A DNA stretch of 64,000 nt from Chloropicon primus (Eukaryota): positions 744,001-808,000 of the forward strand of contig CP060761.1 of assembly GCA_023205875.1 (NCBI GenBank). The letters are read 5' to 3'. A program made the translations under genes and the position numbers. Under the pieces are notes generated by a model that was not told the DNA's origin, did not search any database, and was given only the letters and a program-made list of their open reading frames with translations. This document shows positions 40,701 through 61,700 of the stretch, piece after piece. Within the stretch, counting starts at the first letter, position 1. Every line of letters starts with the position of its first letter.

Positions 40701-43700
40701 ACGAGACTCCACCGACCGTAGGGATGGAAATATCTTCTTTGCTGCTGATCACACGGAAGCTCAACTTGTCCACAAGGCATGGGGATGCGTCAATCTGAGA
40801 GGACTGAGTTACTCTTCCTACTTCAGTTGCACTACCCACCGCATGCAGACTCACTCCAAGGCTTGAAGTGCTCAGAATGCACGCCTCAACAGATGCTGGA
40901 ATGCGAGCTTGCAATTCAAAGCCATCACTGGAGGATGAGGTCACACTGTCCATCAAGTGCAAAGATGAGTCTATTTGAGCATGTGGTGTGGATAAGTATG
41001 GTTTTGCAATGTTTGCATATGATTCGAAGTAGGGTCCGCAGTTGAAAGCGATATCTGCACCGTATCTTGGATTTTCTGCATGAATCAATTGTGTGGGGGG
41101 GGTTGAAACGTGCCCATCCAGCAATGATAAATTGTGCACATGTTCATTGGATAGGTGTAGGATAACTTTTCCCGTGGCGTTTATGCTGATTGTGCATCGC
41201 GTTGCATATTTCATAATGCTCTTGCTGTTACATTCACCAACAGCAAAAAGTTCCATGAAATTGCAATCAGTCACTAGTGCAGTAGTAGAATACTCGAGAA
41301 ACGCATCCAATACTTCATGAACGATGGTAATAGCAGTGCTACAGGGCAGAAACTTTCTTCCGTGAAGCTCAGAAACCACTTCAGATACTTTGCTGACTTT
41401 CAGGTTTTCTCCTTCAACCAAAAGGATTCCTTCTGATGGATATCGAAAGCTCTGGAATACTGCACAAGTAAATTCTCCTCTGTTCAATGATTCTTTGGAT
41501 TCCTGCCAAATAGAATACTTCTTTTCGATACTCGAATGAAGCTGATCTTGGGCTTCAGAACACACAATGTGGGCATTTGTTCCTTGGAAAGCAAATGAAT
41601 TGATGCCAACACTCCTGGTGCGGTTGTCATTTTGGGGACATGAATATGTCTCCCTAGGCATAAGCATAAACTCGCTGGTGTCACTTGCAATCGAATCAAG
41701 CATATACGAAATATGGCGGTTCAATGTCCTCAAATGTGAAATTGGTAGGGAATGCTTCTTGAAAATGCTTTTTTGTGCAAGGTAGAACCCTGCAAGGCCT
41801 GCTGCAGCTTCAGCATGTCCTATGTTGGATTTGTCCGCTGAAATAATTTTGGGCTGAATCGCACTTTCTTGAGATTGCCGCGAAAAGTAGTCATGCAGAG
41901 ATGTGATTTCAATGGGATCTCCTAGTGCTGTTCCAGTGCCATGAAGGAAGATACTCATCAGATCGTTCGCGTCAATGTCTGCAAAGATGTGGGCTTCGGC
42001 AATGACAGCCTTTTGGGATGGACCGTTAGGCGCAGTAAGTGAGCTTGCCCTTCCATCCTGATTCACAGATGACCCTGAGAATAAAACAGCATTATCAACA
42101 ATTTCTTCTGATTGGACTATTCTCAAGCAAGTGCATGCCTCTGCCCTGACATATCCATCCGCAGTATTATCGAGAGCTTTACAACGCCCTTCTTCTGAGA
42201 GCAGGCTCGCAGCATCAAAAATCCCTGTGACCCATTTTGAAATCATAACATTCACTCCACTGCAGAGGGCAGAGGACATAGTTCCATGGAGGAAGTTTGT
42301 ATACGCCATGTGTACTCCGACCAAGCTTGATGAGCATGCCGTGTCAATACTAAGAGCTGGCCCATTCAAACCGAATTGGTAAGATAATCTACCTGCTGCT
42401 ACACTGAGCCCCGTACCAGTTGCAATGTACGGAGTCAACGGAAGCTTGAAATGCTGAATCAAAGCACTGTGATCGTGTGTTGCAATGCCAACAAATGATC
42501 CGCAAGACTTCCTAGAATCATCCACAAGACAGCTTGCAGAGAGCTTCAGAAGCAAGCGCTGTTGTGGGTCTGTAGCCATTGCTTCGCTCTTCGTGAAAGA
42601 GAATGCAGAGTAGTCGAACATGTGAACATCGGTCATGAAACCCCCAAAATTGTAGTCCAGTTTTGAACCATGGCCCTCGTTCGCATCCCATCTGTCTACA
42701 GGAACAAGACTAATTGCATCACAAGCAGTGCCTTTCCTAGCCTCACGAGCATAGGGGAGTTGAGATGCAATATCCACAATGTAGTGAAGGTATTCCTTTC
42801 TTGTCGCTCCTCTTGTGATTTCTTTGGCTTGAACTTGCACAGTAGTGTTCGGAGCCATGTAGCTGACAATAGCTGAGATGGATGGGTAGTCAAACACAAG
42901 AGTTCCAGGCAAGGCCACGCCAAGAACATTCTCTAAAGAATTTCTCAACTCCACGGCACCTAATGAATCGATGCCAGCAGCAACGAGCGGACTATCAATG
43001 GGCACCTGACTTCCAAGAATGCTGTACACGACATTTTGCACATCCTCCTGCATCTTTCGAATAGTCTGAGATGATACCATTTCTTCTTGAGGCTGCCTTG
43101 ATTTTCTTTCACCTTCAATGATCGCTTCAAAGCTCTCCTCTTCCTTTGCTGCTCGGCAGAGTTGTGGTTGAAAGTTCACAGCTTTTGAGAACTTTTTCCA
43201 CGTAATTGGTGCAACAGCGAAGACTGGGGAGATGGGAATGATGCATCTTTGTAAGAGCAGCTCGAATGAAAAGAGACCATCCATGGGATGCACTGGCGCC
43301 ATCCCCAAACGAAGCAGTCTCTCCTTCATGCCCATGCTTCTAGCCATACCGATGTTTCCCCAGGCTCCCCATTGAATGGAATAAGAGGATTTACCAAAAC
43401 TATGCGAGGATGTCATGTAACTATCCAAGTAAGCATTTGCAGCGCTATACGCAATTTGACCGGCGGAACCAAGAAGCGCGGCGATAGAAGAAAACCCTAT
43501 ATCTGTGTGTACCGCTAATGACCAGGACGTATTTGAAGCATTCTGCACACCCCTACATTTGGGAGAGAATACACTCATCACTTGATCGTACCTCTGCTGC
43601 AGTACTGTAGCATCGCGAAGGATCCCCGCACCGTGAAGCACAATCAACTCGTTTGTCTCGGTCTGCAAGAGAGGGGAGCTACAAAGGTTATCTTGGCAAG

Positions 43701-46700
43701 CAATGTTAGCTTTCATGAACAAGACTTCAGACTCCGAGTGAGACATTTCTGCTGCAGCTCTTGCAGACCTGGTATGACCAGACTGGCTGCCAAGAAGCAA
43801 TTTCTGCATTCCCTGAGCAATGCACCACCGCGCAAACAGGACACCGAGTGCTCCCTGACCGCCATAGATCAGACCATGAAGGTTTCTCAAATCATCTAAT
43901 GTGCGGTCGGCACAAATGACTGCCTTTCCAACAAATTTGCTATGAAGCAAAGTCTTGAACGCAGACGACACCTCCTTCAATTTATAAGAAGTATGGGATG
44001 AAGACTTGACTTTGCCTTCCGTCAGGAGAACCGCAAGCTGTTGCAAGCAGATCGAAACGAGTGGAAGTGAGTGGTAATGCATATTGTCGGCACGGGCAGC
44101 GCCAACGGATACCAAGTTCATACTGATGTCTTGCCGGTCCACTGGAGCACAGAAAGGGTGCCAGATATTTGTTTTGCTAAGTTCGACAAACATTCCTCCC
44201 CTTTCGAGAAGGGAAAGGCTCCCAGCCACCATTCCAGGGTTTGTGGCAAAGTTAATCACGCTCTGGATGCACCTTGATTGTTGCGATGCAATCTCGCTCA
44301 CAAACTTGGTTGACCTTGAGTCCATGACGCTCTGAATGGAAAGAGATCTTACGAATGTCCTTTTCAGTGCTGTTGAGCATGTTCCATAGACTCTGACGTC
44401 TGCCAACTTGCTCAGCTCGATAGCCGCAAGCCCAATGCCCCCACTAGCTCCATGAACAAGAATGGATTCTATCTTATCAAATCTTGAGAGCATGGCTTCC
44501 CAAGCTACTGCATTGGCTACGAATGCTGTGGGCAACATTGCAGCATGATCAAAGTTGCATGCAGGAGGGACGGGCGCAAGCAGAATACTTGGCGTGACAG
44601 CATTTGAACCGAGACCTCCAGAGCCAACACCCCCTGGGGTGAACCCAAAGACGGAGGAACCCAGGCAGAATGGATGGCCGCCATGCTGATTCACGTTGAC
44701 CACGGTTCCAGCTGCATCACCCCCGCACAAACCAGGGTCGTATCCTGGAGGGCCAGGATATAAACCAAGCACATTCAACAAGTCTCTGAAATTCAACCCA
44801 ATGCTTCGAACGCAAATTTCTACCGCGTTTTCATGCAATGCAACTGGTTGTTGCCTCTTTATCTTCAACGAGCTCACCAAACCTCTTGGAGCACTGTGAA
44901 CATGGTATGGAGGTGGGGTCCACTCGAATTTTCTCGAAAACATAAAGGGTGAGACTGCTGTTGACTGAAAGTTGTATTGCTCTCCGCCTGCCACGTCAGT
45001 TTCGGTAGGACACTTGCCGATCAAGTCCATTCCCCCGGAAACGTCTGATGAGCACTCGTAAATGTCTGGCATCCGGATACAATGGACTGACAGATTACCT
45101 TCCAAGCAAGAAGTCCTCATCATACTGCTCAAAGACTGGGCAGTGCAAAGTCTTTCCATGCTCACCGGGGCGAAATTTGGTGGCACAGAAGGCACAGAAA
45201 TATCAAAGCAAAATTGCTGAGACCTGACCTGCAGAGCTTGCAACATCAGAAGACACGATCCTCGGGTTTCCAAGCCTTGCTTTCCCTGGAATTTTTGCAG
45301 TACCTTTGATGGCTCCGAGTTGCCAACTTGAGAAGCTTCTGTTCGGTACTGTATGCAATACGTAACGTCTTCATCCTTGGCTTTTGAGCGAACAACCTTC
45401 CCCTCCATCTCAGAGGACTTTTCCTGCTTCACTGCTTTCAGATGAAGGTCATGACTAAATCCAACAAAATCACTTCCACGGGAATCGCATAGGTAGTGAT
45501 TAGTTGTAGAAGTCGATTCTCTTGAATTCTGAAACAAGGTCAAAAAGTCATATTGCGAGGCTCTGCTGCAGTCTGATCCCAGCCGCAAGTGTTCAAGAGC
45601 TACTGGAATCTTCAGACCAGACGAGTCCAAGGTCGAAATTGTCCGCAAAGCAGCTGTGTGCAACCACGCATCCAAATAATTTGCGTGAAGATTCACAGAG
45701 TCATTGTCTCCGCCCCCACACTCTTCAGCTTTACTCACGCATGCATGATAGTGGCTCGTTTCCGGAGGAGCGGGCAGAGATAGAGTAGGAGCTTCCACAA
45801 TCTTCTCAACTTCGAGAGAAGACTCACTCTTTCTCATTTTTCCGTCTGAGTGCCTGGTCTCGATTGCGCTGTCATTGTAAGATGATGCTACTGACCAAGT
45901 CCCAGTGCTTGCATTCACTTGAAACGAATACAGATGCTTGCCTTCATTGCCGGGACTACGACTCGCTTTGACAATCAAAGCAGACAAGATTGATGTTTCC
46001 ACGATGGAGTAACCTGATGCCTCCGATAGACAGGACAAACGGAGTGCGCCAGCAGCAGCTTCAAGAAAGGCTGCAGCTGGAATCACTACCCTCGAGAGAA
46101 CTATATGGTCGTAGAGATATGCGTTTCTGGCACAGTCGCCAAAGCCTAATTCAAATCGCAAGTCAGCCACGTCATGAGCGCGGACAGATTCCAAGAACGC
46201 ATGCAATTCTGGCGACACGTTCAAGACAAGCGCAGACTTGTCTATCGCTTTGCGTGACACTCCTTTCGCAAACAAAACACAAGATATCACAGCATGACTG
46301 TTCACACCTGTCATTCCAAACGAGCTTGTCCCAGCAATCTCGCTGTGGGCCAAAGATGTTGCAGAAAGAGGTGCCTTCGCAAGCGAGGTCCAGCCCTTCA
46401 AGGCCGAGGTGACATAAGGATTCATGTTGCGGAATCTAAAAGGAGCGCCGATGGACTTTATCAAAGCGAAGGAAGCCAAGAGCAAGCCAGCCAGACCTGC
46501 TGTGCTTTCAGTATGCCCTATGGAGGCCTTGCTCGATCCCAAGGCCAAGACGTGAGCATCAGGTGATTCGCCGCTACCAAACTTTGCGCTTTGCAGCATT
46601 CCACCAATAGCACCAACCTCGATGGGATCACCAAGACTGGTCCCCGTGCCATGCAGAGAGACGTAGTCGACATGCTGGGGGCTCTTCTTTCCTCGTTGAA

Positions 46701-49700
46701 GTGCACGCAATATCAACGATTGTTGCGATGGACCATGTGGCGCTGTGAAACTGCTCGATCGTCCGTCTTGATTGACTGCAGAGCCGAGAACAGCAACACC
46801 TGCCCCCGTATCACCAGAAGGTGCACCCATGTGGATGACTGCGAAGCCCTCCCCTCTACCATAACCATCAGCGTCGGCATCAAAGGTTTTGCAACGCCCT
46901 GAAGGGGAGAGTGCCCCAAGCTGGCAGAGCTGGACAACGGTGTCTGCCAAGAGTATCGCGTTCACTCCTGCAACAAGAGCGGATGGGCAAGATTCTCCTT
47001 GGATGTCATGTAACCCCAGGTGCATCGCAACGAGGGAAGAGGAGCAAGCAGTGTCCGTAACGATGCAAGGACCATTCAGACCAAATTGGTAAGAAACTCT
47101 GCCTACCAAGCTGCTTGCGCCGTTTCCTAAAACAGAATAAGAGTTCAGAATGGACAAGGATTTGACTATGGTAGCGTATTCTTGCCAACAGCACCCCGCA
47201 TAGACACCCACATTCAATGAATCTAATGAAAGTAAAATGCTGGACACTTGCTCAAGAAGGACGCGCTGCTGTGGATCCATGTAGATGCTTTCTTGCTTCG
47301 ACATGAAATACTTTTGGCAATCAAAATCGTACACACTCTCTGCGCTTGAAATAAAATTTGGGACCCAGAACGAATGAAGCTCTGCCATTTGTAATGCATC
47401 CCACCTGCGGTATGGTACATTTGCTTGAGTATCGTCAGATTGCATAGCCAGCCTTTCTACAAATGGCTCCTCAACGTTGCCCGAGAAGAGTTCTCTCCAA
47501 TCAAGGATGTAAGCCAGGGAATCTTTCTTCATATCAAGAGGAGGTCCCATGGCCATGGCCCGTTCTAGAGTCGATTCCTTGTCTTTCAGAGACTTCGCAT
47601 CATTCACATCAACAACGCCTAATATGAACTCACTCAAGAGCTCTACAGTTGAATAGTCGAACATGACTGTCGCAGGAAGCTCGACACCAAACGATTCGTT
47701 CAGGTTATTGCGCAGCTCAACAGCCTCCAGGGAGTCGATTCCAAGCTCCATCAACGGTTGGTTTGCCGGCACATCTTCACCAAGCATTTCCGAGATGAGC
47801 TTGCTCACAGTATCATCGACATGCTCCTTGATATTACTGGACTGGGCTGGGGGGGCTGCCTGTACGGTCGGCGCGACAGCGGCGGCGTCTCGGGCCTGGC
47901 CACGAGGCTTTAAACTGACGTCGTACTGGGAGTCTATTCTCCAGGACACTATGCTCGACTCTGGGAAACGAATGGAGTCCTCGCCACCGGCAAGCATGTA
48001 CGTTCTCTTCCCGTCGCTATCGACTTCCTCCAAGTAGTACCTTCCCTTCGTGGTGCTTTGCGAGATTGGTTTGATGCCGCACGAGGCGTGAACTCTTGCA
48101 AAGTTCTGGGTCATCTCAACAAAGTCTGAAGGAGGGACAAAGGTTCTCGTGTTCAGCCTTTCCTGAAGACTCCCCGTATCAAGGCCTTGGCGAACGTGCA
48201 GCACGTACAGAGATGACGCGTATCCCGATCCATAGGAGTACACCATAACCCTCTTTCCTGCGCATTCTTGGCCCGTGACCTGCATGAAGAGGGACGCAAT
48301 GTTGCAATACGCGGAAGCGGTGTACGGGTTGCCAATCCGCTCGCTCACAAAGAGACTATCCCCAACCTTCTCAGAAAAGATGTCTTGAAGCTGACTCACT
48401 TTGAACTTCTCGGATAGGAGCAGGCTCTTGAGCGCCTTCTTGACAAGTCTCGTGTTTGGAGAGTGGAATATCATGTAATCCATGGCTTCCACAAGCTTTT
48501 CTACGCCCAGCTTGCTGCGAAGGGCATTGAAACAGGTTTTGAACCCTTCCAAATAGCACTGCACAGAGTAAGGACCGTCCAGGTGGGCGAAAGGTTGGAT
48601 GTCTGCGACGGGTTTGTGGAAATCGTACGTGTCCTTCATGCACGTCGCCCGGGCAGGCTCGAGCACAACTCGTGCGTCTGGAGTGATAAGCATGGCAACC
48701 GCAGCGGCAGCTGACGAGAAGTGAAAGCGCGTTGTGTAGCTCGCGATGTCAGATGCCACTACTATTGCGTACCTGCCATCCCATGCCTCACTTTGCATCC
48801 AGGCTATTGAATTGAAGAAGGCCGCCGTTCCACCGTAGCAGGCATTTGTGTTATCCACGCCTTCTACGCTTGTGTTGCCCTTCTCTTCAAACAGCCTCAT
48901 CAAAAATGATTTGATAGACTTGCTTCTATCGACACAGCTTTCTGTGCCCACTTCCACCCTACCAATGGCGTCGTACGGAATCCTGTGAGATTCCATGAGA
49001 CCGCGAACGGCGTTGAGTGCAAAGGAAACAGAGTCTTCATTGTCATTGCAGCACGACAGGGCTTTCTGGCCCAAGCCATTCGTATACTTCCCCTCGCAGT
49101 TGTCATACTTCTCCAACTCTTGCTGAGAAACTGCAAACTCGGGGATGTACACGTAAATCCCACTGATGCCCACATTCGATGCCCTCGCTGGAGTCGTCAC
49201 CGACATCCTCCCGGAGAGAGGAGTCGACTTTGCAATTGCCTTGGGCTTGGACGCGGTTGGCAGCACTGATCCGATGTAGTCCTGAAGGGACTTCATCGTC
49301 GTGTAGTCGAACATGACTGTCGCAGGAAGCTCGACACCAAACGATTCGTTCAGGTTATTGCGCAGCTCAACAGCCTCCAGGGAGTCGATTCCAAGCTCCA
49401 TCAACGGTTGGTTTGCCGGCACATCTTCACCAAGCATTTCCGAGATGAGCTTGCTCACAGTATCATCGACATGCTCCTTGATATTACTGGACTGGGCTGG
49501 GGGGGCTGCCTGTACGGTCGGCGCGACAGCGGCGGCGTCTCGGGCCTGGCCACGAGGCTTTAAACTGACGTCGTACTGGGAGTCTATTCTCCAGGACACT
49601 ATGCTCGACTCTGGGAAACGAATGGAGTCCTCGCCACCGGCAAGCATGTACGTTCTCTTCCCGTCGCTATCGACTTCCTCCAAGTAGTACCTTCCCTTCG

Positions 49701-52700
49701 TGGTGCTTTGCGAGATTGGTTTGATGCCGCACGAGGCGTGAACTCTTGCAAAGTTCTGGGTCATCTCAACAAAGTCTGAAGGAGGGACAAAGGTTCTCGT
49801 GTTCAGCCTTTCCTGAAGACTCCCCGTATCAAGGCCTTGGCGAACGTGCAGCACGTACAGAGATGACGCGTATCCCGATCCATAGGAGTACACCATAACC
49901 CTCTTTCCTGCGCATTCTTGGCCCGTGACCTGCATGAAGAGGGACGCAATGTTGCAATACGCGGAAGCGGTGTACGGGTTGCCAATCCGCTCGCTCACAA
50001 AGAGACTATCCCCAACCTTCTCAGAAAAGATGTCTTGAAGCTGACTCACTTTGAACTTCTCGGATAGGAGCAGGCTCTTGAGCGCCTTCTTGACAAGTCT
50101 CGTGTTTGGAGAGTGGAATATCATGTAATCCATGGCTTCCACAAGCTTTTCTACGCCCAGCTTGCTGCGAAGGGCATTGAAACAGGTTTTGAACCCTTCC
50201 AAATAGCACTGCACAGAGTAAGGACCGTCCAGGTGGGCGAAAGGTTGGATGTCTGCGACGGGTTTGTGGAAATCGTACGTGTCCTTCATGCACGTCGCCC
50301 GGGCAGGCTCGAGCACAACTCGTGCGTCTGGAGTGATAAGCATGGCAACCGCAGCGGCAGCTGACGAGAAGTGAAAGCGCGTTGTGTAGCTCGCGATGTC
50401 AGATGCCACTACTATTGCGTACCTGCCATCCCATGCCTCACTTTGCATCCAGGCTATTGAATTGAAGAAGGCCGCCGTTCCACCGTAGCAGGCATTTGTG
50501 TTATCCACGCCTTCTACGCTTGTGTTGCCCTTCTCTTCAAACAGCCTCATCAAAAATGATTTGATAGACTTGCTTCTATCGACACAGCTTTCTGTGCCCA
50601 CTTCCACCCTACCAATGGCGTCGTACGGAATCCTGTGAGATTCCATGAGACCGCGAACGGCGTTGAGTGCAAAGGAAACAGAGTCTTCATTGTCATTGCA
50701 GCACGACAGGGCTTTCTGGCCCAAGCCATTCGTATACTTCCCCTCGCAGTTGTCATACTTCTCCAACTCTTGCTGAGAAACTGCAAACTCGGGGATGTAC
50801 ACGTAAATCCCACTGATGCCCACATTCGATGGCCTTGAAGGCAGGCTCTCAGTCTGGGAGTGTGCCTGGCTCTGGGATTTTGGCTTTCCGTGGATGAATG
50901 TTTGAGCTTGAATCCAGGCTTCTTTTCTTAGCACCTCAAGTCCTACGCGATGCCTGAAAATACTTGCGTACGCAGAAGGCCTATTGAACGTTCCCAAAGT
51001 ATTCCTCACAATCTCCTTTGCCTTGTCCAAGAGATCAGTCGAGTCGCTGTACACATGATTCACGATGCCAGAGTGCTTGGCTTCCTCTGCTCTTGCTTCT
51101 GAATTTGAGTACAACAAATACGCCAAGTCTCTCCAACCTGTCACTGACCTGTAGGTGCCAGTCATTCCAAGGCCAGGGGAAAGGGACAGGTGCAGGAAAT
51201 TGACCTGGAAAGAAGTCGTTTCCCGACAAATTCTCGAGTCGAACCACAATGAAAGACTGACGCCAGCCCCAATCAGCTTGCCTTGAACGGCAGCAAAGAG
51301 TGGTACCTCTAATGTCTGAATGCACGAGAAGCTCGTATAGAATGTGTACAGCATCAAGGCAAGCTCCGGCACCTCCTTCTGCATGAACGCGTGGTGCGAT
51401 TCTTCTCCAGAGAGTCTCCCACCTGTCGAAAAGTGTTCTGCAGAGCTCCAGATAATCACAGCACCAACGCTCGAATCACCATCCAACGTCTGGACAATGC
51501 TTTGGAATCTGGACGCAAAGGCAAAAGTAAGATGACGAGTCTTCAGCTCAATGCAGGCAATCGACCCGTCCATTTTCAACTCAATAAGACTCTTGTCCTC
51601 TTTCTCTTTGATATCGTAGCTACCAAAAATCAAGTCTGACATTATCAAAGAGGCATCTTCCACAGATTTGACAGGCAAGCTGTCCTTGATGATTGAGAGC
51701 AGCTGCTTTGGAGTCCTCTTCAACCGCATGAGAAAAGCTTTCTTCTCACTCACCCAATCGCTGCTCACGGTGAAGTCCACGAGACCGAGATTCACTGCTT
51801 CGAGGCTCCCGATCTGTTCGCCCGTGAGCATCAGGCGCCTGCACACGTGCTCTGGAATCCTCTGCTTTGCCGCAAGGGACACCATGCCTGGCACCAGCCC
51901 CCTCTTGACTTCCGGGAAGGAGAAGGTCGCCGAATCCTGTGCCACCACAACATCGGCGTATCCCAAGGCGACAAGGGCATCTGATGTCATAGCGCCTTTG
52001 CACACGACGATGAGAACGCCCTTGAACTGCATCAATTTGCGGATGAGGGACGTCTGCGCGTGGATGAAAGAGTATTTCGTGTCCTGCGGTGGCTCAGAGA
52101 AAGAGGTGAAATCGCCCTCCTTCGACGAGTTTTCAAGAACAAGGAGCCTTTGCTCACCTGCACTCGTTGCCACGTCAAGGACCGCAGCGATATTCCTCAA
52201 CACTGAGATCCTCTCCCCAAACGCGTCCACGGGGCACGATACATCAACGGTGAAGATGCTCGCAGAGATGCTGTCCGACTCCGTCACCGCAAAGGTAGGG
52301 GCGAAGTCTTCGGGCGACTGCTGTGAGCTCAGGTCAACGTCCCACACAGCTTCCATCAGTGAAGATGGCGTCAAAGGTTTCCTCATCATCTCAGTGGTAG
52401 CACTCGCGGCAAGATCTGGAAGTTTCCTGGCCCTGCTGATGGCATTCCTCAACGAGTTGTCTTCCACCGAAGTGATCACATTGTTCACCATTCCGAGATC
52501 GCACAAGCCGGCTGCACTCACGGGTTCACTCGCAGACAGACAGTTGTACAGTGCAGTGGTCCCCATTCGGTGATCCAGGCACTTCAACGTGATTGGGCCG
52601 AGTGCATTGATGCTGCTCATCTGTGACACAGGAAGAGCAGCATCCGAATATGCACTGACCCAATCGCATGACGATGTGATGCCCAAACCCATTGCGCTCA

Positions 52701-55700
52701 AGTCGCCACTGCAGGTGCACGCCGTGAAGTGCGAGAGGCTTTGGAGGTATTCAAGCAATGCTATCATCTGCATCTGCGCACGCCTGATTGCAGAGGCATC
52801 ACCCAAGTTGACATCCTCGGCAGTGCTTGCGCTTGCATCCCGTGAGCCGGCAGTCAACTCTATCAAGAGAACGCGCACGCCGGTGGCGTCTCTCTCTCCG
52901 ATGCCTGCGCCTGCCAGAGCGAGCATGACTTTTTCAATGCTTTGTCCAATCTCCAGTGCACCGCAAAGATGCGTCTTGTCCTTGATGACCAAGGTGCAAA
53001 CACCATCTTTTACTTCAACGGTGCAATCAAGGCAGTCAACCTTGGCTGCAGAAGGCTCGGTCACCTTGTCGTCCGCGAACGCCAGGCAGTGATAGAGGCC
53101 CTCGCTCCAACAGGACGACTTGGTCAATCTCTTCGTGTGAGTGCTCACGTCCCGGTGCTTGGAGAGACTCGCCACAAAATCACCCTCCAGATCGTCCGTC
53201 CCCCTCACGGTGAAGTCCACGAGACCGAGATTCACTGCTTCGAGGCTCCCGATCTGTTCGCCCGTGAGCATCAGGCGCCTGCACACGTGCTCTGGAATCC
53301 TCTGCTTTGCCGCAAGGGACACCATGCCTGGCACCAGCCCCCTCTTGACTTCCGGGAAGGAGAAGGTCGCCGAATCCTGTGCCACCACAACATCGGCGTA
53401 TCCCAAGGCGACAAGGGCATCTGATGTCATAGCGCCTTTGCACACGACGATGAGAACGCCCTTGAACTGCATCAATTTGCGGATGAGGGACGTCTGCGCG
53501 TGGATGAAAGAGTATTTCGTGTCCTGCGGTGGCTCAGAGAAAGAGGTGAAATCGCCCTCCTTCGACGAGTTTTCAAGAACAAGGAGCCTTTGCTCACCTG
53601 CACTCGTTGCCACGTCAAGGACCGCAGCGATATTCCTCAACACTGAGATCCTCTCCCCAAACGCGTCCACGGGGCACGATACATCAACGGTGAAGATGCT
53701 CGCAGAGATGCTGTCCGACTCCGTCACCGCAAAGGTAGGGGCGAAGTCTTCGGGCGACTGCTGTGAGCTCAGGTCAACGTCCCACACAGCTTCCATCAGT
53801 GAAGATGGCGTCAAAGGTTTCCTCATCATCTCAGTGGTAGCACTCGCGGCAAGATCTGGAAGTTTCCTGGCCCTGCTGATGGCATTCCTCAACGAGTTGT
53901 CTTCCACCGAAGTGATCACATTGTTCACCATTCCGAGATCGCACAAGCCGGCTGCACTCACGGGTTCACTCGCAGACAGACAGTTGTACAGTGCAGTGGT
54001 CCCCATTCGGTGATCCAGGCACTTCAACGTGATTGGGCCGAGTGCATTGATGCTGCTCATCTGTGACACAGGAAGAGCAGCATCCGAATATGCACTGACC
54101 CAATCGCATGACGATGTGATGCCCAAACCCATTGCGCTCAAGTCGCCACTGCAGGTGCACGCCGTGAAGTGCGAGAGGCTTTGGAGGTATTCAAGCAATG
54201 CTATCATCTGCATCTGCGCACGCCTGATTGCAGAGGCATCACCCAAGTTGACATCCTCGGCAGTGCTTGCGCTTGCATCCCGTGAGCCGGCAGTCAACTC
54301 TATCAAGAGAACGCGCACGCCGGTGGCGTCTCTCTCTCCGATGCCTGCGCCTGCCAGAGCGAGCATGACTTTTTCAATGCTTTGTCCAATCTCCAGTGCA
54401 CCGCAAAGATGCGTCTTGTCCTTGATGACCAAGGTGCAAACACCATCTTTTACTTCAACGGTGCAATCAAGGCAGTCAACCTTGGCTGCAGAAGGCTCGG
54501 TCACCTTGTCGTCCGCGAACGCCAGGCAGTGATAGAGGCCCTCGCTCCAACAGGACGACTTGGTCAATCTCTTCGTGTGAGTGCTCACGTCCCGGTGCTT
54601 GGAGAGACTCGCCACAAAATCACCCTCCAGATCGTCCGTCCCCCTCACGGTGAAGTCCACGAGACCGAGATTCACTGCTTCGAGGCTCCCGATCTGTTCG
54701 CCCGTGAGCATCAGGCGCCTGCACACGTGCTCTGGAATCCTCTGCTTTGCCGCAAGGGACACCATGCCTGGCACCAGCCCCCTCTTGACTTCCGGGAAGG
54801 AGAAGGTCGCCGAATCCTGTGCCACCACAATGTCTGCCAAGCATGGAAATAGCATGCCCCCACCATAGGTGTTTCCATGGCATGTCACGATGATGGGATG
54901 CTCATAAGCAAGCAGTGCACTGTACAGGTTTCCAAAGAGTTCAAGTCCCTTCATGAAGTTTTCCATCTCTGACACTTTAGCACCAAAGCAAAAGTTTCTA
55001 CCATTTGCCTTCAGGTGGATAGGCTTCGAGGCCTTGGAGAAAATCTGATTCAATTCAGAAAGCATTTCGATGCCAAGGGCATTGTCGGAATCTGGATCAT
55101 TCAATACGACGGTGAGAACTTCGCCTTCGTAACAGATCACTTTGTCATGACCGTCTGCCCGTGGCGACCGCGTGAAGCCTACTTGCACACCCTCTAAAGC
55201 GGGTCCCGTGCCATCTGCTGACATGCCAGCAGCATTCAAGCTCACGCGGAGTGCATTGTTTTGATGAATCGCATTCAAGTTGCTGTGGATGCAGTCCACA
55301 GAGGAAAGTAGGGAGATTCTGCTCAACCTGTCCGCGAGGAAATCCGTTGCGTTGATCAACGTCCCAAAGGGAATGCCCACGAAATTGAAGATATCATCAC
55401 GCTCAGAGCGCCTTTGAAGCTCAAAAATCGCCTCGACACTCTGACCTGTACCAGAAACCTTCTCGCCCCCAAGAGTCTCGCCAGAAGAAAAGAAATTGCA
55501 GTGGCCGCGCAGTAATTCACGGGTTTCAGGCTCTGGACCACTCCCCTCCAAGGAGAAACTCCCCAACGAAGGGAATGAGCTTGATGAAAGGTATGCTGGA
55601 AGCATTGGCGTGCGTGAAAACGAACAATTTACGAGAAAATGCTTCACATTCGCATCCCTCTTCATGATCTGCAACTGCGAATCAGCAATCTCAAGGAGTA

Positions 55701-58700
55701 CAGATTCGTCCAAGGTTTTCCTCGAGTGGATTGTTGAGGTAAAGTGGCAAAGAGGCACATTCGAATCAACGCGCACAGTGTGTTTCACCGGATTCACTGA
55801 ATTGCCCTTGACTTCACTGTAAAGAACAAACGAAGAGGCGGATTGATGGACATATAGATGCTTTGTGCTGCCATCTACAATTCGTTTGGGTATGGAGCTA
55901 CTGCGCAACGCAGTCAATGAGCAATGACTGTTCACTCCACTCATTCCAAACGAGCTTGTCCCAGCAATCTCGCTGTGGGCCAAAGATGTTGCAGAAAGAG
56001 GTGCCTTCGCAAGCGAGGTCCAGCCCTTCAAGGCCGAGGTGACATAAGGATTCATGTTGCGGAATCTAAAAGGAGCGCCGATGGACTTTGTCAAAGCGAA
56101 GGAAGCCAAGAGCAAGCCAGCCAGACCTGCTGTGCTTTCAGTATGCCCTATGGAGGCCTTGCTCGATCCCAAGGCCAAGACGTGAGCATCAGGTGATTCG
56201 CCGCTACCAAACTTTGCGCTTTGCAGCATTCCACCAATAGCACCAACCTCGATGGGATCACCAAGACTGGTCCCCGTGCCATGCAGAGAGACGTAGTCGA
56301 CATGCTGGGGGCTCTTCTTTCCTCGTTGAAGTGCACGCAATATCAACGATTGTTGCGATGGACCATGTGGCGCTGTGAAACTGCTCGATCGTCCGTCTTG
56401 ATTGACTGCAGAGCCGAGAACAGCAACACCTGCCCCCGTATCACCAGAAGGTGCACCCATGTGGATGACTGCGAAGCCCTCCCCTCTACCATAACCATCA
56501 GCGTCGGCATCAAAGGTTTTGCAACGCCCTGAAGGGGAGAGTGCCCCAAGCTGGCAGAGCTGGACAACGGTGTCTGCCAAGAGTATCGCGTTCACTCCTG
56601 CAACAAGAGCGGATGGGCAAGATTCTCCTTGGATGTCATGTAACCCCAGGTGCATCGCAACGAGGGAAGAGGAGCAAGCAGTGTCCGTAACGATGCAAGG
56701 ACCATTCAGACCAAATTGGTAAGAAACTCTGCCTACCATGAAACTCCTGCCATTTCCGACAATCCCAAATACGGTGTGGCCATGCCCATGTGAGGACAAG
56801 ACTTCTTTGTACTCATCCCACATGCAGCCAAGATAAACGCCGGCCTGACTCATGACATCTGTTGTCAGCGGCGACAGCAAAAGAATCTTTGATGTCTCCT
56901 GAAGGAGGATGCGTTGCTGTGGATCAATATGGGTTGCCTCCTGTATAGACATTTTGAAGGACCTCGCATCAAAGCTCTTTATGTCCCTACAATAAGCAGC
57001 AAAGCGGCAGTAAGAAGTTCCAACAGTTCGAGCGGGGGAATAATCAGCTTCAATGTCCCATCTATCGTAGGGCGTCTTGGTATGAGGTGTATTCAAACGA
57101 AGAAAGGAGCTGGAGTGTGAGCCCTCATCAAGGGTTGGAATTTTGAACACCATATCCAAAATTTCTACCACACTCACGGGGAGCTCCTGAGGATCAGGCT
57201 GGGTAGAAGAAATCTGCGTCTTGTCACCACCTAGTGGCTTTTCGACAATGCTCCCTTGAAGAAAGCGTGCGATCTCTTGGATTGTGGGATAATCAAAAAC
57301 AAGTGTTGGTGGAAGCTCCAACCCAAACATTTGTGATAAGTTGCTTCTGAATTCCACAGCTCCCAGGGAGTCCATACCCGACTCAATCAAAGGAGAGTCT
57401 ACATCGGCTTCGACTCCCACTATATCTTCAAATGCGCCCTTGATTTGAGAAATCACTTTCTCACTCTTCGCTTCGCTCACAATCTCCTCGGGGACCGGCT
57501 CGGCGCCACCACTCAATGCCTTTGACGCATGAAGCGCCACCTGCGAGTAGATGGGGTGATATTCGTCCAGCGGCCTGTCAACGGACGGGTTGATCACCCC
57601 GTAGAATCCAGATTCAAAGTCCCCTCGCAACGGCGCGCCGATGCCAAAGGTGTTCATCGATTTCTGTAAAGCAAGGAGTCCATCCGATGGGTTCAGAAGT
57701 CCTAAACCTAGCCTATTGAACCTATGCTGCAAGCTTTGGTTCGATCCCATTCCCGACTGTCCCCAAGGTCCATAGTTTAAAGCAGACACCGAGCAACCCT
57801 TTTGTCTTTGCGCAAGAGCAAAGTGGTTGAGTGCAGCGTTTGCACCAGCGTAGCTGCTTTGGCCGGGAGCACCAAGCAAGGAAGCAGAGGAAGAGAAAAG
57901 GACGGCCTTCCCCTTCAAATTCTTTAAAGAATCGCAAACAACATCTCCCACGACAACTTTGGAAGAAAAAGTCGACCTGAGATCCTTTGCTCTCTGGTTC
58001 ATGAAGACAGAGTCTGCAAGTGCTCCACTCGCGTGGACGAAGGTCATGTTGGGAGAGTGGAAGTTCCCATTCCTGAGCAGGCAGTCCCTCTCCTCCAGCG
58101 ATGACATGTCACAGCGAACCACAACAGTAGTGAGACTCTCTTGAGACAGGACTTCCTCCATGTTGTACCTTGCGTTCCTCGACGCCAAGGAGATGTTCTT
58201 GCATCCCAGTTCCGACATCATGGCTTTCACAGTCCGACCCAGGGCCCCGCTTCCGCCCGTGATGAGTGCATGCTCCGCCTTGTCCATGCGATTCAATACG
58301 GTGAGACGTCCCACGGGTCTCTGGCATATTTTGAAGCTACTGCTATAGCCACCCTCCAACTGGATTTCTCTCCAGCAGTCCTCCCCTTTCTGACCAGTTA
58401 CGCCGAACACAAAACCACTCTGGCCAGACTCGTAAGCAGACACCTGCACATTGAGGGGCACAAACTCTGCATTTTCACAGTGCAAGGAACGAGATATGCT
58501 CCGCAGCATGTGAGAGTGCAAACTCGACATCTCACCAACCATGGGCAACCTGTTGTGAGACCTTGATACCGTGTGAACAGATGCCTTCAAGTTAAGCGCC
58601 TGGGAACTTTGAATGCAGTGCATAATCTGAAGAGCGTGGCGTGCGGAGGGCACTGTCGCGTCCAGATCGTCGAAAGCGATGTGAGGACTCGACCTGTTGC

Positions 58701-61700
58701 CAAACAAACCAGCACTTTCTCTGGGGTTTTCCGCCCTGAAAGTTGTAAAGTACAACATCGCCATGCTTTTCTGTGGCATTTGAGCTTTCCTTGGAGCTTC
58801 GTCGGATGCCAAGGCCTTCGGCATCTTCACTTGCAACCCCAGCGCCAAGGAGAGAACCTTGTGGGGATAAGACTGACTAACGGAGTGGTTGCTCTCACTG
58901 TCATGCTTATCGCCATCGAGCCACGCATGCAAATCGTGCAAACCAGGTCCATGCGTGACGGTGCTCCAATACATTGATAGAGCAACTGGGATCCTGGCAC
59001 GGCTCTCTTCAGTACTAGAGGATTCAGGTACGGTGGCCAGCTGCAGACAGCAGTCCATCAAATTCGGAGGCACGCAATATTCATTCTCTCCTCCCTCCCA
59101 CATTGTTCGACCTGATCTGCACGAGCCATTCTCGTCTTGACGACGGAGGCGGGTCTCATTGGCCTTCTCATTGGAGTCAATGGAACAAGCGAGGCTTGTG
59201 GATCCAGTGAAGGAGGTCGCGGAAGACCCGCTTTTGAAAACATCGACAGCACCATGCTGGTTGCACCTGACTCTCACAGTTCCAACAGACTCTGGATTCT
59301 TCATGGTGAAAGGAGACGCGATGATGCAATCTAAAAGAGAAGCCACGACGCTCTTTCTCTTCCCGTCGTTTGGAGCCATGAATGCAATAGCCTCGTACGC
59401 AATTTCAAAGAAAGCTGCTCCTGGGAAGAGCTTCCTTCCAAAGATCACGTGGTCCTGCAGGAAAACCGCTGGTTTGCTGCGGGAGTTCAATCCAAACCCA
59501 AATTCAACTTCTCTCAGCAAAGACACTCGGTCCACGAGTGCCCTTGGGGTGGATTCTATCGAGATCCACTGCTTGTGAGAGCAGCAAAGGTCTGGCACTC
59601 TGCTCCTCCTGGAGACGAACTGAAGTTTCTCCACCAAGACATTGGCATTGGTCCCCTGAAAGGCAAACGCACTTGCTGATCCAAGCATTCGGTCAGCGAC
59701 CGCCGAGGAAGCAAATTGCCTCCCGACGCAGAAGTTCGGCCTTCCATTGGAAGCGCACTTATCCATCGGGTGGTGAAGGTGGGGGTTCATCTCCCTCAGG
59801 TGAAGGACAGGGACAGTGTAGTGAGCAGTCCATGCGAGCAGCTGCTCCAGGCCCACCATTCCGGCCCCTGCCTCCGCGTGGCCGACAGCAGATTTGGCGG
59901 CGCCAAGAACAAGCTTTTCTGTCCTGCTTTCCATTGCCACGTCCAAGGCTGAGAATGCTGCGGACACTTCAATCGGGTCACCGAGAGCTGTTCCTGTCCC
60001 ATGCATCTGCAGCTTGGAAACATCGCAAGGGTGCATTCTCGATATCTCTAGCATGGAGAGGATGAGGCCAGCTTGAGCGGGCCCGCTGGGCGCCGTCAAT
60101 CCACTTGAGCGGCCATCCTGGTTGACAAAGGATCCACGTAAAATCGCTTCTCTGCCCCTCGATAGATCCTCGTACCTCAATGGAGCCAGGGCCACTGATC
60201 CACAAGCTTCGGAGCGGACGTATCCATCCGCGGAGCTATCCAAGGTCTTGCACCTGCCATCGAGAGTGAGCATCGACGCTTTCCAGCATATCATGCTCCA
60301 GCGCGGAGAGAGGATCAAGTTGACACCACAAGCCACACCGCATTCGACCTGGTTGATGGACATGCCCACTCTTGTCAGATGCAACGAGACCAAAGATGAG
60401 GAGCACGCTGTGTCGACAGACATTGAGAATCCACTGTAGCCAAACGTGTAAGAGAGGCGACCTGAAGCTGCGCTCAGGTGCCCTCCAGTTGCCATGTACG
60501 CTCCAGGCTGATTCGCTGGGTACTTTTCTGCGTAGTCATTCAGAGAGATTCCCACAACCACGCCAACTGATGCACCCAGTTTGGCCTCGCCCCTCAAAGA
60601 ATGGTTGAGGCAACTCACAGACTCCAGCAAATGCCTTTGCTGCGGGTCAATGAAGGCCGTCTCTTGAAAGGACATTTTGAAGACTTCGTTGTCAAAGTTC
60701 ATAACGCCAACAAGAAAGCCTCCAAAGTTTGGAAACATGGTATGCCTAGATCTGGCAGAGAAATCCCATCTCGACAGCGGAGTGCAAGATATCGCATCGT
60801 TCCACAAGCAGGTAAGACCTTCAGCAACTCTTGGGAGCTTCACAAAAGTCCCCACGATCGCGGTGGAGATTTCTTCCGCTCCCGGGGAGTCCAACCTCTT
60901 CTCGCTCACCGCTAGCGGCAACTCCGTTCCCTTTTCCTCTGACACCAGAGCTTCCACGTATCTCGCAATGTTATCCACTGTCGGGTAATCAAAGACGAGA
61001 GTTGTTGGCAACTCGATCCCGATGCTTTCCTGCAGCGAACTGCTAAACGCGACGGCTTGCATGGAGGACAAGCCGCTGTCAAACAGTGGGGAGTCGTCTT
61101 GAAGATTCTCAAGATCGAACGTTGCTAGCAACGACTTCACGGTGCTCTGGATCGCTTGACTTTGGCCACGTTCCCCTGCCCCCGAGGAAGCCAGCTTCTT
61201 CCGCGCACTGAGCACATCCAGAGCAGTCACCGGAAGCAAGCGCCTGTAGTAACCAAGGTCCTCGGGGGGCGACGAGACGACCCAAACCCAAATGTTCCTG
61301 TCAGAATGAGCTTCCAGCAAGGGCAAGATCTCCTCGAGATCCTTGTCGACTAGGGAATTCACAAATATCCCGACGCCGCGGGCGGGCGGAATTCTGTCCA
61401 GGACATTGACCAGGCATTCAACCGAGTTCAAGCTCTCGTGGGGGTACTGGATCAAGACAGGGTTGTCTGCATCCATCTGTTGCACATCCCCGAGATCACC
61501 CGTTTCTGCCACAAGAGTCAAGGCCGAGCGGATCATCTTGGCTTCCGCAAAGTGACTTGACAGCATTCGTTTCAACACCTTCCCCGTCGCATTCGTTGGG
61601 AGCCTCGGCATGAAGTGGATGCTCGAAGGCACTTTGAAGTCCGAGAGCTGGCCCTGGCAAAAGCGAGTGAGCTCCTCCTTGGTGACATCCGTCCCTGGAG

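What the first reader, a model, noticed from the sequence alone, without database searches (positions are those of the whole stretch)
47620..57170. Beta-branching machinery fused in cis: KS-ECHx6-HMGS-ACP-HMGS-ACP
Seen: module 2 has no KR but carries a crotonase array and two catalytically intact HMGS domains (Glu/Cys/His), each followed by an ACP. Established: in bacterial systems (PksFGHI, curacin, mupirocin) HMGS is a free-standing protein working with a donor ACP and a decarboxylating KS. Inference: this module installs a beta-branch on the unreduced beta-keto intermediate entirely in cis. No Cys-less KS is present in the window, so the acetyl donor route may differ.
Basis: partly seen in the sequence, partly recalled or inferred. 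Interest (0 to 1): 0.85.

Follow-up and report, generated by a model that had tools for sequence, protein, structure and literature searches.

The report
Built-in methyl-branching module in algal PKS
One module of a giant polyketide synthase gene, 99% identical to an annotated Chloropicon primus (tiny marine green alga) protein, carries its own HMG-CoA-synthase-type and crotonase-type domains, which would likely add a methyl side branch without the separate helper proteins that studied bacteria use; similar fused modules were already noted in other algae, so it is a new example, not a new kind.

Summary
On the minus strand, one 9140-aa open frame reads KS, six crotonase-like segments, HMGS-ACP, HMGS-ACP, then the next KS, with no KR and no AT. 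The array is not six independent enzymes. It comes from perfect tandem duplications, and only the first (A) and last (D) crotonase domains match the two types conserved in relatives. The inner four are degenerate.

The HMGS domains are eukaryote-type HMG-CoA synthases (TIGR01833 391 bits, above its cut-off; human HMGCS1 307 bits versus PksG 69). They keep the Glu/Cys/His motif positions. A contig from a different study bridges ACP1 into HMGS2, so that duplication is real.

The best named match is an annotated "polyketide synthase [Chloropicon primus]" at 99% identity. The same ECH-ECH-HMGS cassette occurs fused in other protist megasynthases and in all nine bacterial PKS loci I examined. A 2020 review notes it for Emiliania huxleyi and lists both domain types for Euglena.

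In-cis beta-branching is the best reading (about 0.72). Direct use of acetyl-CoA is inferred. Verdict: a new member of a known but uncharacterised kind; interest is moderate.

The parts
35806..63228 (-). First open frame of the giant PKS gene (9140 aa). Order: AMP-binding, ACP, KS1-DH-KR-ACP, beta-branching module 2, KS3-DH-ER-KR-ACP, further modules.
   Evidence: Residues 1-5276 are 99.2% identical to P0333 'polyketide synthase [Chloropicon primus]'.
55894..57111 (-). KS2, the condensing domain of module 2, with Cys in DTACSSS and with HGTGT.
   Evidence: Pfam ketoacyl-synt 171.5 bits and Ketoacyl-synt_C 90.6 bits; motifs.
55162..55893 (-). Post-KS stretch of about 250 aa with no recognised family.
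   Evidence: 0 Pfam and 0 NCBIfam families.
54454..55161 (-). ECH-A: intact A-type crotonase domain, the predicted dehydratase of the HMG-type adduct.
   Evidence: ECH_1 89.3 bits. Keeps 32 of 49 residues invariant in 9 bacterial A-type domains, including FCxG, GGGML and FPE. The A-type profile's best PDB match is 4zu2, isohexenylglutaconyl-CoA hydratase.
53749..54453 (-). ECH-B: degenerate crotonase-like segment with weak D-type likeness.
   Evidence: ECH_1 17.4 bits, below the cut-off of 27. 16 bits to the D-type profile. Keeps 11 of 53 invariants. The fold model was unusable.
53029..53748 (-). ECH-C: chimeric A-type segment. Its C-terminal half is identical to that of ECH-A; its N-terminal half lacks the FCxG and GGG motifs.
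   Evidence: ECH_1 46 bits over profile positions 72-203 only; keeps 24 of 49 invariants.
52309..53028 (-). ECH-B': exact duplicate of ECH-B.
51652..52308 (-). ECH-C': duplicate of ECH-C.
   Evidence: keeps 23 of 49 invariants.
50824..51651 (-). ECH-D: D-type crotonase domain lacking both hydratase Glu positions, the predicted decarboxylase. It is diverged.
   Evidence: ECH_1 80 bits. Aligns with the second ECH of relatives. Keeps 20 of 53 bacterial invariants. Matches PksI at 31.8 bits.
49549..50841 (-). HMGS1: eukaryote-type HMG-CoA synthase domain with the Glu/Cys/His motifs.
   Evidence: TIGR01833 391.4 bits against a cut-off of 286.2; PDB ranking; tree.
49210..49548 (-). ACP1 (GIDSL, no Trp anywhere). 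Its C-terminal end lies in the unique 118-nt spacer 49186-49303.
   Evidence: PP-binding 52.2 bits; motif; spacer. A contig from another study bridges 48919-50565.
47899..49191 (-). HMGS2: duplicate of HMGS1.
   Evidence: The 1532-nt duplicate that contains it (47654-49185 versus 49304-50835) is 99.935% identical, with one mismatch. Pfam finds two HMG_CoA_synt_N stretches.
47560..47898 (-). ACP2.
   Evidence: PP-binding 55.9 bits.
46429..47526 (-). KS3: the next module's KS, which would accept the branched chain. It shares an 819-nt segment that is 99.4% identical with KS2.
51764..54830 (.). Tandem repeat of a 1440-nt unit, 2.13 copies at 100% identity, which generates ECH B/C and B'/C'.
   Evidence: The same duplication is present in the deposited protein P0333.

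Best explanation
Module 2 of this trans-AT-type giant PKS (99% identical to an annotated Chloropicon primus protein) encodes KS, six crotonase-like segments and two near-identical HMGS-ACP units in one reading frame. It is predicted to turn the module's beta-keto group into a methyl branch entirely in cis.

Inferred steps:
1. KS2 makes a beta-ketoacyl thioester on ACP1 or ACP2. The extender would be loaded by an AT encoded elsewhere.
2. An HMGS domain, acetylated on its Cys, adds acetate to the ketone and gives a 3-hydroxy-3-carboxymethyl adduct.
3. ECH-A, which resembles methylglutaconyl/isohexenylglutaconyl-CoA hydratases, dehydrates the adduct.
4. ECH-D, which has no hydratase Glu, likely decarboxylates it to a beta-methyl enoyl-ACP.
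5. KS3 takes the chain on.

The four inner ECH segments are likely inactive duplication products. The HMGS is a eukaryote-type HMG-CoA synthase, and neither the window nor related bacterial genomes show a decarboxylating KS. The acetyl group is therefore likely taken directly from acetyl-CoA. This last step is the least certain (about even odds).
For: Shown by calls:
- Domain order, with no KR or AT in the module.
- HMGS motif positions are conserved against human HMGCS1.
- The HMGS scores above the curated cut-off of the eukaryotic equivalog TIGR01833 (391.4 versus 286.2) and below that of the prokaryotic one (200.9 versus 360.35).
- PDB ranking: HMGCS1 307 bits, plant HMGS 268, E. faecalis mvaS 124, PksG 69, CurD 63.
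- In a 63-row tree, the 29 megasynthase-embedded HMGS plus 2 short proteins group together (SH-aLRT 89). That group sits inside a 100-supported clade with free eukaryotic HMGS, apart from Firmicutes and myxobacterial enzymes.
- The order ECH_A-ECH_D-HMGS is conserved in 9 of 9 bacterial loci mapped and in P0003, P0007, P0025, P0194, P0197 and P0200.
- ECH-A keeps FCxG, GGGML and FPE, and its profile's best solved match is isohexenylglutaconyl-CoA hydratase.
- ECH-D lacks Glu at both hydratase positions (the positions are recalled from rat crotonase).
- 14 of 14 KS in the window have Cys.
- The PksF-type model NF005490 is over its cut-off in 0 of 5 bacterial genomes that carry the cassette, against 1 of 14 controls. 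Two of those genomes show only a FabF-like gene plus the PKS's own KS. The Nitrospirales locus has no KS or ACP gene beside the PKS.
- A relative at 78% identity keeps HMGS-ACP-KS.
- A contig from another study bridges ACP1-spacer-HMGS2.
- Tandem ACPs are usual in beta-branching modules (PMC10006238, passages).
Against: - There is no biochemical or product evidence.
- ECH-D keeps only 20 of 53 residues invariant in bacterial D-type domains and lacks their GN-PRG-CPG motif, so decarboxylation may fail or differ.
- The ECH1/ECH2 assignment rests on weak similarity. VirD scores 54 bits and PksI 32 bits, both below generic hydratases.
- The ACPs carry no Trp, the flag usual for beta-branching ACPs (the flag is described in PMC10006238).
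- Only 64 kb of the genome was visible. A KS0, a donor ACP and the AT could all be encoded elsewhere.
- NF005490 may be too narrow to detect other KS0 types.
- Downstream the gene is broken by five 1-nt indels, and the first frame ends between a KR and its ACP.
- The genome paper's table gives low RNA-seq depths (2-36) for its PKS genes. Which row is this gene was not established.
Confidence: 0.72

Rival explanations
1. Same in-cis branching chemistry, but with the canonical donor route. Acetyl-ACP would be made by a decarboxylating KS and a donor ACP encoded elsewhere in the genome, as in PksF/AcpK or CurB/CurC.
For: All characterised PKS HMGS enzymes use a donor ACP (PMC11522927, passages). 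The AT of this PKS must also be encoded outside the window, so trans partners exist. Only 64 kb was visible and no whole genome is held.
Against: The HMGS belongs to the acetyl-CoA-using eukaryotic family, not the PksG/CurD group. 14 of 14 KS in the window have Cys. None of 5 bacterial genomes with the homologous cassette has a PksF-type match over the cut-off.
Confidence: 0.3
2. The cassette stops short of decarboxylation or gives another outcome, such as a carboxymethyl or exomethylene branch, because ECH-D is too diverged to act as a standard ECH2.
For: ECH-D keeps 20 of 53 invariants of bacterial D-type domains and lacks their conserved motif. Carboxymethyl branches exist in bacteria (bongkrekic acid, PMC12560621, abstract in the listing).
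Against: D is the only full-length D-type domain retained. It scores 80 bits to ECH_1 and keeps H73, F74, G77, D138 and R140. The A-D-HMGS order is conserved.
Confidence: 0.12
3. The module, or the whole gene, is decaying or inactive. The duplications and frame breaks would mark a pseudogene in a rapidly rearranging locus.
For: Five 1-nt frame breaks lie downstream. Four of six ECH segments are degenerate. The genome paper's table gives low RNA-seq depths for several PKS genes.
Against: A 9140-aa frame is open through the cassette. Both HMGS keep the triad motifs. A relative at 78% identity keeps the same HMGS-ACP-KS order. Four of the five breaks are homopolymer-length changes, as expected of long-read errors.
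Confidence: 0.1
4. The repeated ECH and HMGS-ACP units are assembly artefacts, and the real module has one HMGS-ACP and fewer ECH segments.
For: Identity between copies is 100% and 99.94%. The relative P0064 has a single HMGS-ACP before the KS. Contig depth over the ECH unit is 49.8 against 30-35 in the flanks, which is less than twofold (the tool warns that depth is no copy number).
Against: A 1647-nt contig of another study (X4 record 9, 48919-50565, 2 differences, no gaps) runs from HMGS1 through ACP1 and the unique spacer into HMGS2. The collapsed HMGS-ACP contig has depth 70.6 against 30-35 in the flanks. The deposited protein P0333 has the same ECH duplication. Other megasynthases also have tandem HMGS.
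Confidence: 0.05

Closest known systems
Emiliania huxleyi multimodular PKSs with modules holding two ECH plus HCS; the same review's Euglena gracilis figure legend lists ECH and HCS (O'Neill 2020, Mar Drugs 18:90, PMC7073580; passages and figure legends seen)
   Same: [quoted passage not shown] A Euglena transcript (P0066) is 47% identical to this HMGS.
   Different: Different lineage: a chlorophyte, which that review did not cover (0 occurrences of 'Chloropicon'). There is no N-terminal AT. The ECH pair is expanded to six segments and HMGS-ACP is doubled. I did not see the published sequences, so homology with the E. huxleyi modules is not tested here.
Bacterial HMGS cassettes (PksFGHI/AcpK of bacillaene, CurB-F of curacin, MupGHJK, VirCDE)
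   Same: The same predicted chemistry: aldol addition of acetate to a beta-ketoacyl-ACP, then dehydration, then decarboxylation. Both have tandem acceptor ACPs and the Glu/Cys/His motifs.
   Different: Those enzymes are free-standing and use a donor ACP plus a KS0. Here everything is in cis. The HMGS is eukaryote-type (PksG 69 bits and CurD 63 bits versus HMGCS1 307 bits). The ECH domains are closer to primary-metabolism hydratases than to VirD or PksI. There is no KS0 in the window and no Trp in the ACPs.
Bacterial PKSs ending in ACP-ECH-ECH-HMGS (Nitrospirales L007, Acidobacteriota L008, Dyella jejuensis L004/P0003, Rhodospirillales, Myxococcales, Symploca, Thiosymbion)
   Same: Homologous A-type ECH, D-type ECH and HMGS in the same order. 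The HMGS fall in one tree group with the window's.
   Different: In the bacteria the cassette is C-terminal and follows the ACP, mostly in a single-module KS-AT-DH-ER-KR PKS with a cis AT. Their ACPs carry Trp nine residues after the Ser. I found no paper on them in my searches.
Eukaryotic cytosolic and mitochondrial HMG-CoA synthase (HMGCS1 2P8U, HMGCS2 2WYA; TIGR01833)
   Same: The closest solved relatives. The domain scores above the family's curated cut-off, and the catalytic motifs are conserved.
   Different: Those are free enzymes acting on CoA thioesters in mevalonate and ketone-body metabolism. Here the domain is embedded in a PKS, and its loop corresponding to ARPTGG is replaced.
Chlorophyte giant trans-AT PKS (Chlamydomonas reinhardtii PKS1)
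   Same: An A-domain start, no AT domains and a MDa-scale protein in a green alga (PMC7073580, passages).
   Different: The published CrPKS1 domain legend lists no ECH or HCS.
Tandem ECH didomains with an inactive first copy in trans-AT PKSs (LasH/LasO of lasonolide, PMC9600693, passage)
   Same: A precedent for degenerate crotonase domains retained next to an active one.
   Different: Those systems have a free-standing HMGS and ECH1, and only ECH2 is in cis.

Membership tests
Canonical bacterial HMGS beta-branching cassette (PksG/CurD type) | HMGS with catalytic Glu/Cys/His | tested here: met
   The motif positions align with human HMGCS1 in both copies. The residue roles are recalled.
Canonical bacterial HMGS beta-branching cassette (PksG/CurD type) | HMGS belongs to the ACP-dependent PksG/CurD/VirC group | tested here: not met
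   PksG 68.9 bits, CurD 62.7 and 8s81 87.7, against HMGCS1 307. The domain scores over the cut-off of the eukaryotic model TIGR01833.
Canonical bacterial HMGS beta-branching cassette (PksG/CurD type) | Decarboxylating Cys-less KS and donor ACP | tested here: not met
   14 of 14 KS in the window have Cys. The rest of the genome could not be searched.
Canonical bacterial HMGS beta-branching cassette (PksG/CurD type) | ECH1 dehydratase plus ECH2 decarboxylase | tested here: inconclusive
   An A-type domain (hydratase-like, keeps one Glu) and a D-type domain (no Glu) are present. Both are nearer to generic crotonases than to VirD or PksI.
Canonical bacterial HMGS beta-branching cassette (PksG/CurD type) | Cassette enzymes act in trans as separate proteins | tested here: not met
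   All lie in one open frame.
Canonical bacterial HMGS beta-branching cassette (PksG/CurD type) | Acceptor ACPs in tandem, usually with a Trp flag | tested here: inconclusive
   Two ACPs are present, and neither contains any Trp. The flag is known to be dispensable (PMC10006238). Its exact position is not verified because the paper is not held.
Eukaryote-type HMG-CoA synthase (NCBIfam TIGR01833) | Score over the curated cut-off | tested here: met
   391.4 bits against 286.2.
Eukaryote-type HMG-CoA synthase (NCBIfam TIGR01833) | [quoted passage not shown] | not testable with these tools
   The domain is embedded in a PKS, so the acceptor must be ACP-bound. The donor is unknown.
In-cis ECH_A-ECH_D-HMGS cassette of megasynthases | Domain order A-type ECH, D-type ECH, HMGS | tested here: met
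   The window reads A...D-HMGS. The same order holds in 9 of 9 bacterial loci mapped and in 6 proteins.
In-cis ECH_A-ECH_D-HMGS cassette of megasynthases | HMGS groups with other megasynthase-embedded HMGS | tested here: met
   A group of 31 rows (29 embedded) has SH-aLRT 89, which is moderate support.
In-cis ECH_A-ECH_D-HMGS cassette of megasynthases | Family-invariant residues of both ECH types | tested here: inconclusive
   A keeps 32 of 49, D only 20 of 53, and C, C', B and B' keep 24, 23, 11 and 11.
Crotonase fold (Pfam PF00378) for each of the six segments | Score over the gathering cut-off of 27 bits | tested here: inconclusive
   4 of 6 pass (A, C, C', D). B and B' score 17.4 bits. The model of B had pLDDT 34.8.
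trans-AT PKS | No AT domain within the modules | tested here: met
   No Acyl_transf_1 hit in the 11 segments covering the window.
trans-AT PKS | Free-standing AT encoded elsewhere | not testable with these tools
   No genome is held.

The most novel reading that the evidence does not exclude
This is a second, independently evolved beta-branching machine. It combines a eukaryote-type HMG-CoA synthase, a methylglutaconyl-CoA-hydratase-like ECH and a decarboxylase-like ECH, fused as one portable cassette. It takes acetate straight from acetyl-CoA and needs neither a donor ACP nor a decarboxylating KS. It has spread among green algae, other protists and at least nine bacterial lineages. It would be the long-sought enzyme basis for acetate-derived pendant methyl groups in algal polyketides.
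Probability: 0.4. Interest if true: 0.72.

Novelty: new member of a known kind. Interest (0 to 1): 0.52.

Why it matters
Beta-alkylation from acetate C2 is a hallmark of algal polyketides. A 2019 review stated that there was still no molecular or genetic evidence for the HMG-CoA-synthase step in dinoflagellate polyethers (PMC6835853, passages).

Chloropicon primus has a small sequenced genome (17.4 Mb, PMC6731263). This gene, or its 99%-identical deposited counterpart, offers a compact all-in-one cassette whose parts can be expressed and assayed.

If the HMGS domain uses acetyl-CoA directly, the cassette would be a simpler tool for engineering methyl branches into polyketides than the five-protein bacterial systems. 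The sequence evidence also points to a separate recruitment of primary-metabolism enzymes into PKSs, shared by algae and bacteria.

Tried and rejected
- Whole-genome search: no genome is held for the window.
- Earlier findings by place and by sequence: nothing to show.
- Tandem Repeats Finder found nothing because the periods exceed 500. Self-BLAST was used instead.
- PKZILLA idea: the preprint has 0 occurrences of HMGS, HCS or ECH. The K. brevis proteomics paper also has none. Shelest 2015 on algal PKSs has none.
- Haines 2013 on the Trp flag is not held, so the flag's position is unverified.
My reading of NF005498 and NF005496 as PksH-like and PksI-like is recalled and was not used as evidence.
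- PDB searches with single ECH domains and with profiles rank generic crotonases first. They did not give a clean ECH1/ECH2 call.
- The AlphaFold model of ECH-B from a single sequence had mean pLDDT 34.8 and pTM 0.24. It is unusable, so no fold search was run.
- Expression: no RNA holder is listed. X4 and X5 are only guessed to be RNA.
- A bacterial origin of the window is rejected: the upstream region is microsatellite-rich and the window matches a green-alga protein at 99%.
- The Pfam scan of the long representatives failed on a 5870-aa protein. Domains were mapped with my own phmmer script instead.
- The 12 supplementary files of the genome paper that the search covered (of 20; files 13-20 not searched) list no HMG-CoA synthase. 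Supplementary Data 3, read separately, lists PKS genes without domain detail.

Full report
**What is there.** The whole window is one minus-strand PKS locus. The first open frame runs from the ATG at 63228 to 35806 (9140 aa). Pfam gives this order:
- AMP-binding, ACP, KS-DH-KR-ACP;
- KS2, a crotonase array, HMGS-ACP, HMGS-ACP;
- KS-DH-ER-KR-ACP, then further KS/KR/ACP modules.

No AT domain is found in any of the 11 segments that tile the window. The finding's coordinates (47620-57170) match KS2 through the second ACP, about aa 2040-5200.

**Organism and wider locus.** No genome is held for the window. The 770 bp upstream are rich in microsatellites, which looks eukaryotic. The best named match is P0333, 'polyketide synthase [Chloropicon primus]', 99.2% identical over residues 1-5276.

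The genome paper (PMC6731263, passages and Supplementary Data 3) reports:
- a 17.4-Mb genome with 57.5% GC;
- lower GC around the PKS genes;
- 12 type I PKS genes, listed without domain analysis.

I saw no mention of HMGS or ECH in those passages, in Supplementary Data 3, or in the 12 of 20 supplementary files that searched.

Downstream of 35806 the frame is broken five times by single-base indels relative to 99.5%-identical paralogous modules. Four of the five are homopolymer-length changes. Whether they are sequencing errors or real breaks is open. The first frame ends between a KR and its ACP.

**The crotonase array.** Cut into six segments, ECH_1 scores are A 89.3, B 17.4, C 46.0, B' 17.4, C' 50.5 and D 80.0 bits, against a cut-off of 27. 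DNA self-comparison shows a 1440-nt unit repeated 2.13 times at 100% identity (51764-54830).
- B' and C' are copies of B and C.
- C shares its C-terminal half with A.
- Against relatives, A matches the first ECH and D the second ECH of a conserved ECH-ECH-HMGS cassette, while B matches nothing by phmmer.
- With profiles built from bacterial homologues, B scores weakly (16 bits) to the D-type profile.

The array therefore reads as three A-type/D-type pairs.

Retention of residues invariant in the bacterial domains:

| Segment | A-type invariants kept (of 49) | D-type invariants kept (of 53) |
|---|---|---|
| A | 32 (including FCxG, GGGML, FPE) | - |
| C | 24 (both glycine motifs lost) | 15 |
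| C' | 23 (both glycine motifs lost) | - |
| B | 11 | 11 |
| D | - | 20 |

A single-sequence model of B was unusable (pLDDT 34.8). 'ECHx6' is thus true as a count of crotonase-like segments, but probably only A and D are enzymes.

**The HMGS domains.** The two HMGS-ACP units lie in a 1532-nt duplicate that differs by one nucleotide and is separated by a unique 118-nt spacer, which encodes the end of ACP1.
- The domain scores 391.4 bits to TIGR01833, eukaryotic HMG-CoA synthase (cut-off 286.2). It scores 200.9 bits to the prokaryotic model (cut-off 360.35).
- Among solved structures it ranks human HMGCS1 (307 bits), HMGCS2 (296) and plant HMGS (268) far above E. faecalis mvaS (124), PksG (69) and CurD (63).
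- The EVGTE, NACYGGT and FHSP motif positions are conserved. Their roles as Glu/Cys/His are recalled.
- The near-length word-index search returned mostly eukaryotic mevalonate-pathway enzymes at 36-41% identity. It also returned P0064 at 78% (HMGS-ACP-KS), a Rivularia HMGS-TE at 45% and a Euglena transcript at 47%.

**Are the duplications real?** Contigs of a run from a different study include one 1647-nt piece (X4 record 9). It lies on 48919-50565 with two differences and no gaps. It therefore runs from HMGS1 through ACP1 and the unique spacer into HMGS2.

In the probable source run, the collapsed HMGS-ACP contig has depth 70.6 against 30-35 in unique flanks. The ECH unit has depth 49.8, which is ambiguous, and the tool warns that depth is no copy number. 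The deposited protein P0333 carries the same ECH duplication. P0064 has a single HMGS-ACP, so the doubling is lineage-specific. Other megasynthases have back-to-back HMGS pairs (P0191, P0192, P0193).

**How common is the fused form?**
- The exhaustive search of 1.84 billion representatives gave 2582 hits at E up to 0.001. Of the best 150, 12 are 1000 aa or longer. My domain mapping shows PKS domains around the HMGS in P0191, P0194, P0197, P0200, P0225, P0003 and P0007.
- In prokaryote genomes, 488 of 503 pattern matches encode a relative and 80 loci were kept. I mapped 9 of them. All 9 show A-type ECH, D-type ECH and HMGS in that order: Dyella (two loci), Nitrospirales, Acidobacteriota, Rhodospirillales (two loci), Myxococcales, Thiosymbion and Symploca. 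In Symploca the HMGS lies in another frame.
- The Nitrospirales locus encodes KS-AT-DH-ER-KR-ACP-ECH-ECH-HMGS in one 3157-aa protein next to an MMPL transporter. The Dyella protein begins with AprA-like domains.
- A 63-row tree groups the 29 embedded HMGS plus two short proteins (SH-aLRT 89). That group sits within a fully supported clade with free eukaryotic HMGS, apart from Firmicutes mvaS and myxobacterial HMGS. No named PksG-type sequence was available for the tree.

**Acetyl donor.**
- All 14 KS domains of the window have Cys and HGTGT.
- KS domains found in ten relatives also have Cys.
- The PksF-type model NF005490 is over its cut-off in 0 of 5 bacterial genomes with the cassette, against 1 of 14 controls. 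Two of those genomes hold only a FabF-like gene and the PKS's own KS.

Together with the eukaryote-type HMGS, this makes direct acetyl-CoA use plausible. It remains inference. The model may be narrow, and the alga's genome could not be searched.

**ECH roles.** The A-type profile's best solved match is isohexenylglutaconyl-CoA hydratase (4zu2, 87.7 bits). That enzyme hydrates a 3-substituted glutaconyl thioester, which is the reverse of the needed dehydration. VirD (8ahq, an ECH1) scores 54 bits. D-type domains lack Glu at both crotonase catalytic positions (the positions are recalled). The window's D matches PksI at 31.8 bits. The dehydratase and decarboxylase assignments are therefore predicted, not shown.

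**Literature.** Nine searches were answered.
- Only O'Neill 2020 (PMC7073580, passages and legends) describes algal PKS modules with two ECH plus HCS. It does so for E. huxleyi, and its Euglena figure legend lists both domain types. It does not cover Chloropicon, and its Chlamydomonas PKS1 legend lists neither domain.
- A 2024 structural paper treats PKS HMGS as discrete, ACP-dependent enzymes (PMC11522927, passages).
- A 2019 review says molecular evidence for HMGS in dinoflagellate beta-alkylation was lacking (PMC6835853).

**Verdict.** The in-cis beta-branching reading is the best-supported mechanism (about 0.72). The acetyl-CoA donor idea is plausible at about even odds. The architecture is not unprecedented, and the protein is already deposited. 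This is a new member of a known but biochemically untested kind, with lineage-specific duplications.

Noticed in passing
window 11105-39327: About seven KS-(DH-like)-KR-ACP modules of roughly 3.81 kb are 99.3-99.7% identical to each other. They include a 12,957-nt segment duplicated at 99.5%. This points to very recent module amplification or gene conversion.
   Followed up: partly
window 16748, 24482, 26667, 29339, 35826: Five 1-nt indels break the reading frame relative to intact paralogous modules. Four are homopolymer-length changes. The same T5-to-T4 change occurs in two copies, at 16748 and at the paralogous place near 35826. Whether these are errors or real breaks is unresolved.
   Followed up: partly
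window 51052-51153 (aa 4026-4059 of the ORF): The deposited C. primus protein P0333 lacks 34 residues of ECH-D. These residues align with conserved columns of the bacterial homologues, so that gene model probably splices out coding sequence. P0333 also jumps from the start of KS3 to a KS C-terminal stretch and ends at 5291 aa.
   Followed up: partly
L007:2771-14578; L008; L004:2987-12894: Bacterial PKSs of the form KS-AT-DH-ER-KR-ACP-ECH-ECH-HMGS sit beside an MMPL transporter (Nitrospirales MAG). A Dyella PKS with AprA-like loading domains, the same C-terminal cassette and an alpha/beta hydrolase also occurs. I know of no description of either.
   Followed up: partly
P0194, P0197, P0200, P0003, P0006 versus the window ACPs: All 8 ACPs found in these bacterial-type proteins carry Trp nine residues after the Ppant Ser. 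The ACPs after the HMGS in the window and in P0064, P0183, P0191, P0225 and P0008 do not.
   Followed up: no
P0191 255-1085; P0192; P0193: Back-to-back HMGS-HMGS pairs occur in other unnamed megasynthases. Tandem copies might form the usual HMGS dimer within one chain.
   Followed up: no
P0008 around residue 330; P0066: The embedded HMGS of P0008 has Gln, and the Euglena transcript P0066 has Asp, at the catalytic Glu position.
   Followed up: no
window 46291-47108 versus 55920-56738: KS2 and KS3 share an 819-nt stretch at 99.4% identity, so the KS domains flanking the branching module have been homogenised.
   Followed up: no
window 63659-63956: Two copies of a roughly 125-nt C/T-rich element, 174 nt apart and 98.4% identical, lie upstream of the start codon along with several microsatellites.
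   Followed up: no
whole window: Green algae are generally held to lack the mevalonate pathway (recalled). The searched supplement files of the genome paper list an HMG-CoA lyase but no HMG-CoA synthase (12 of 20 files searched). This PKS domain may therefore be the alga's only HMGS.
   Followed up: partly
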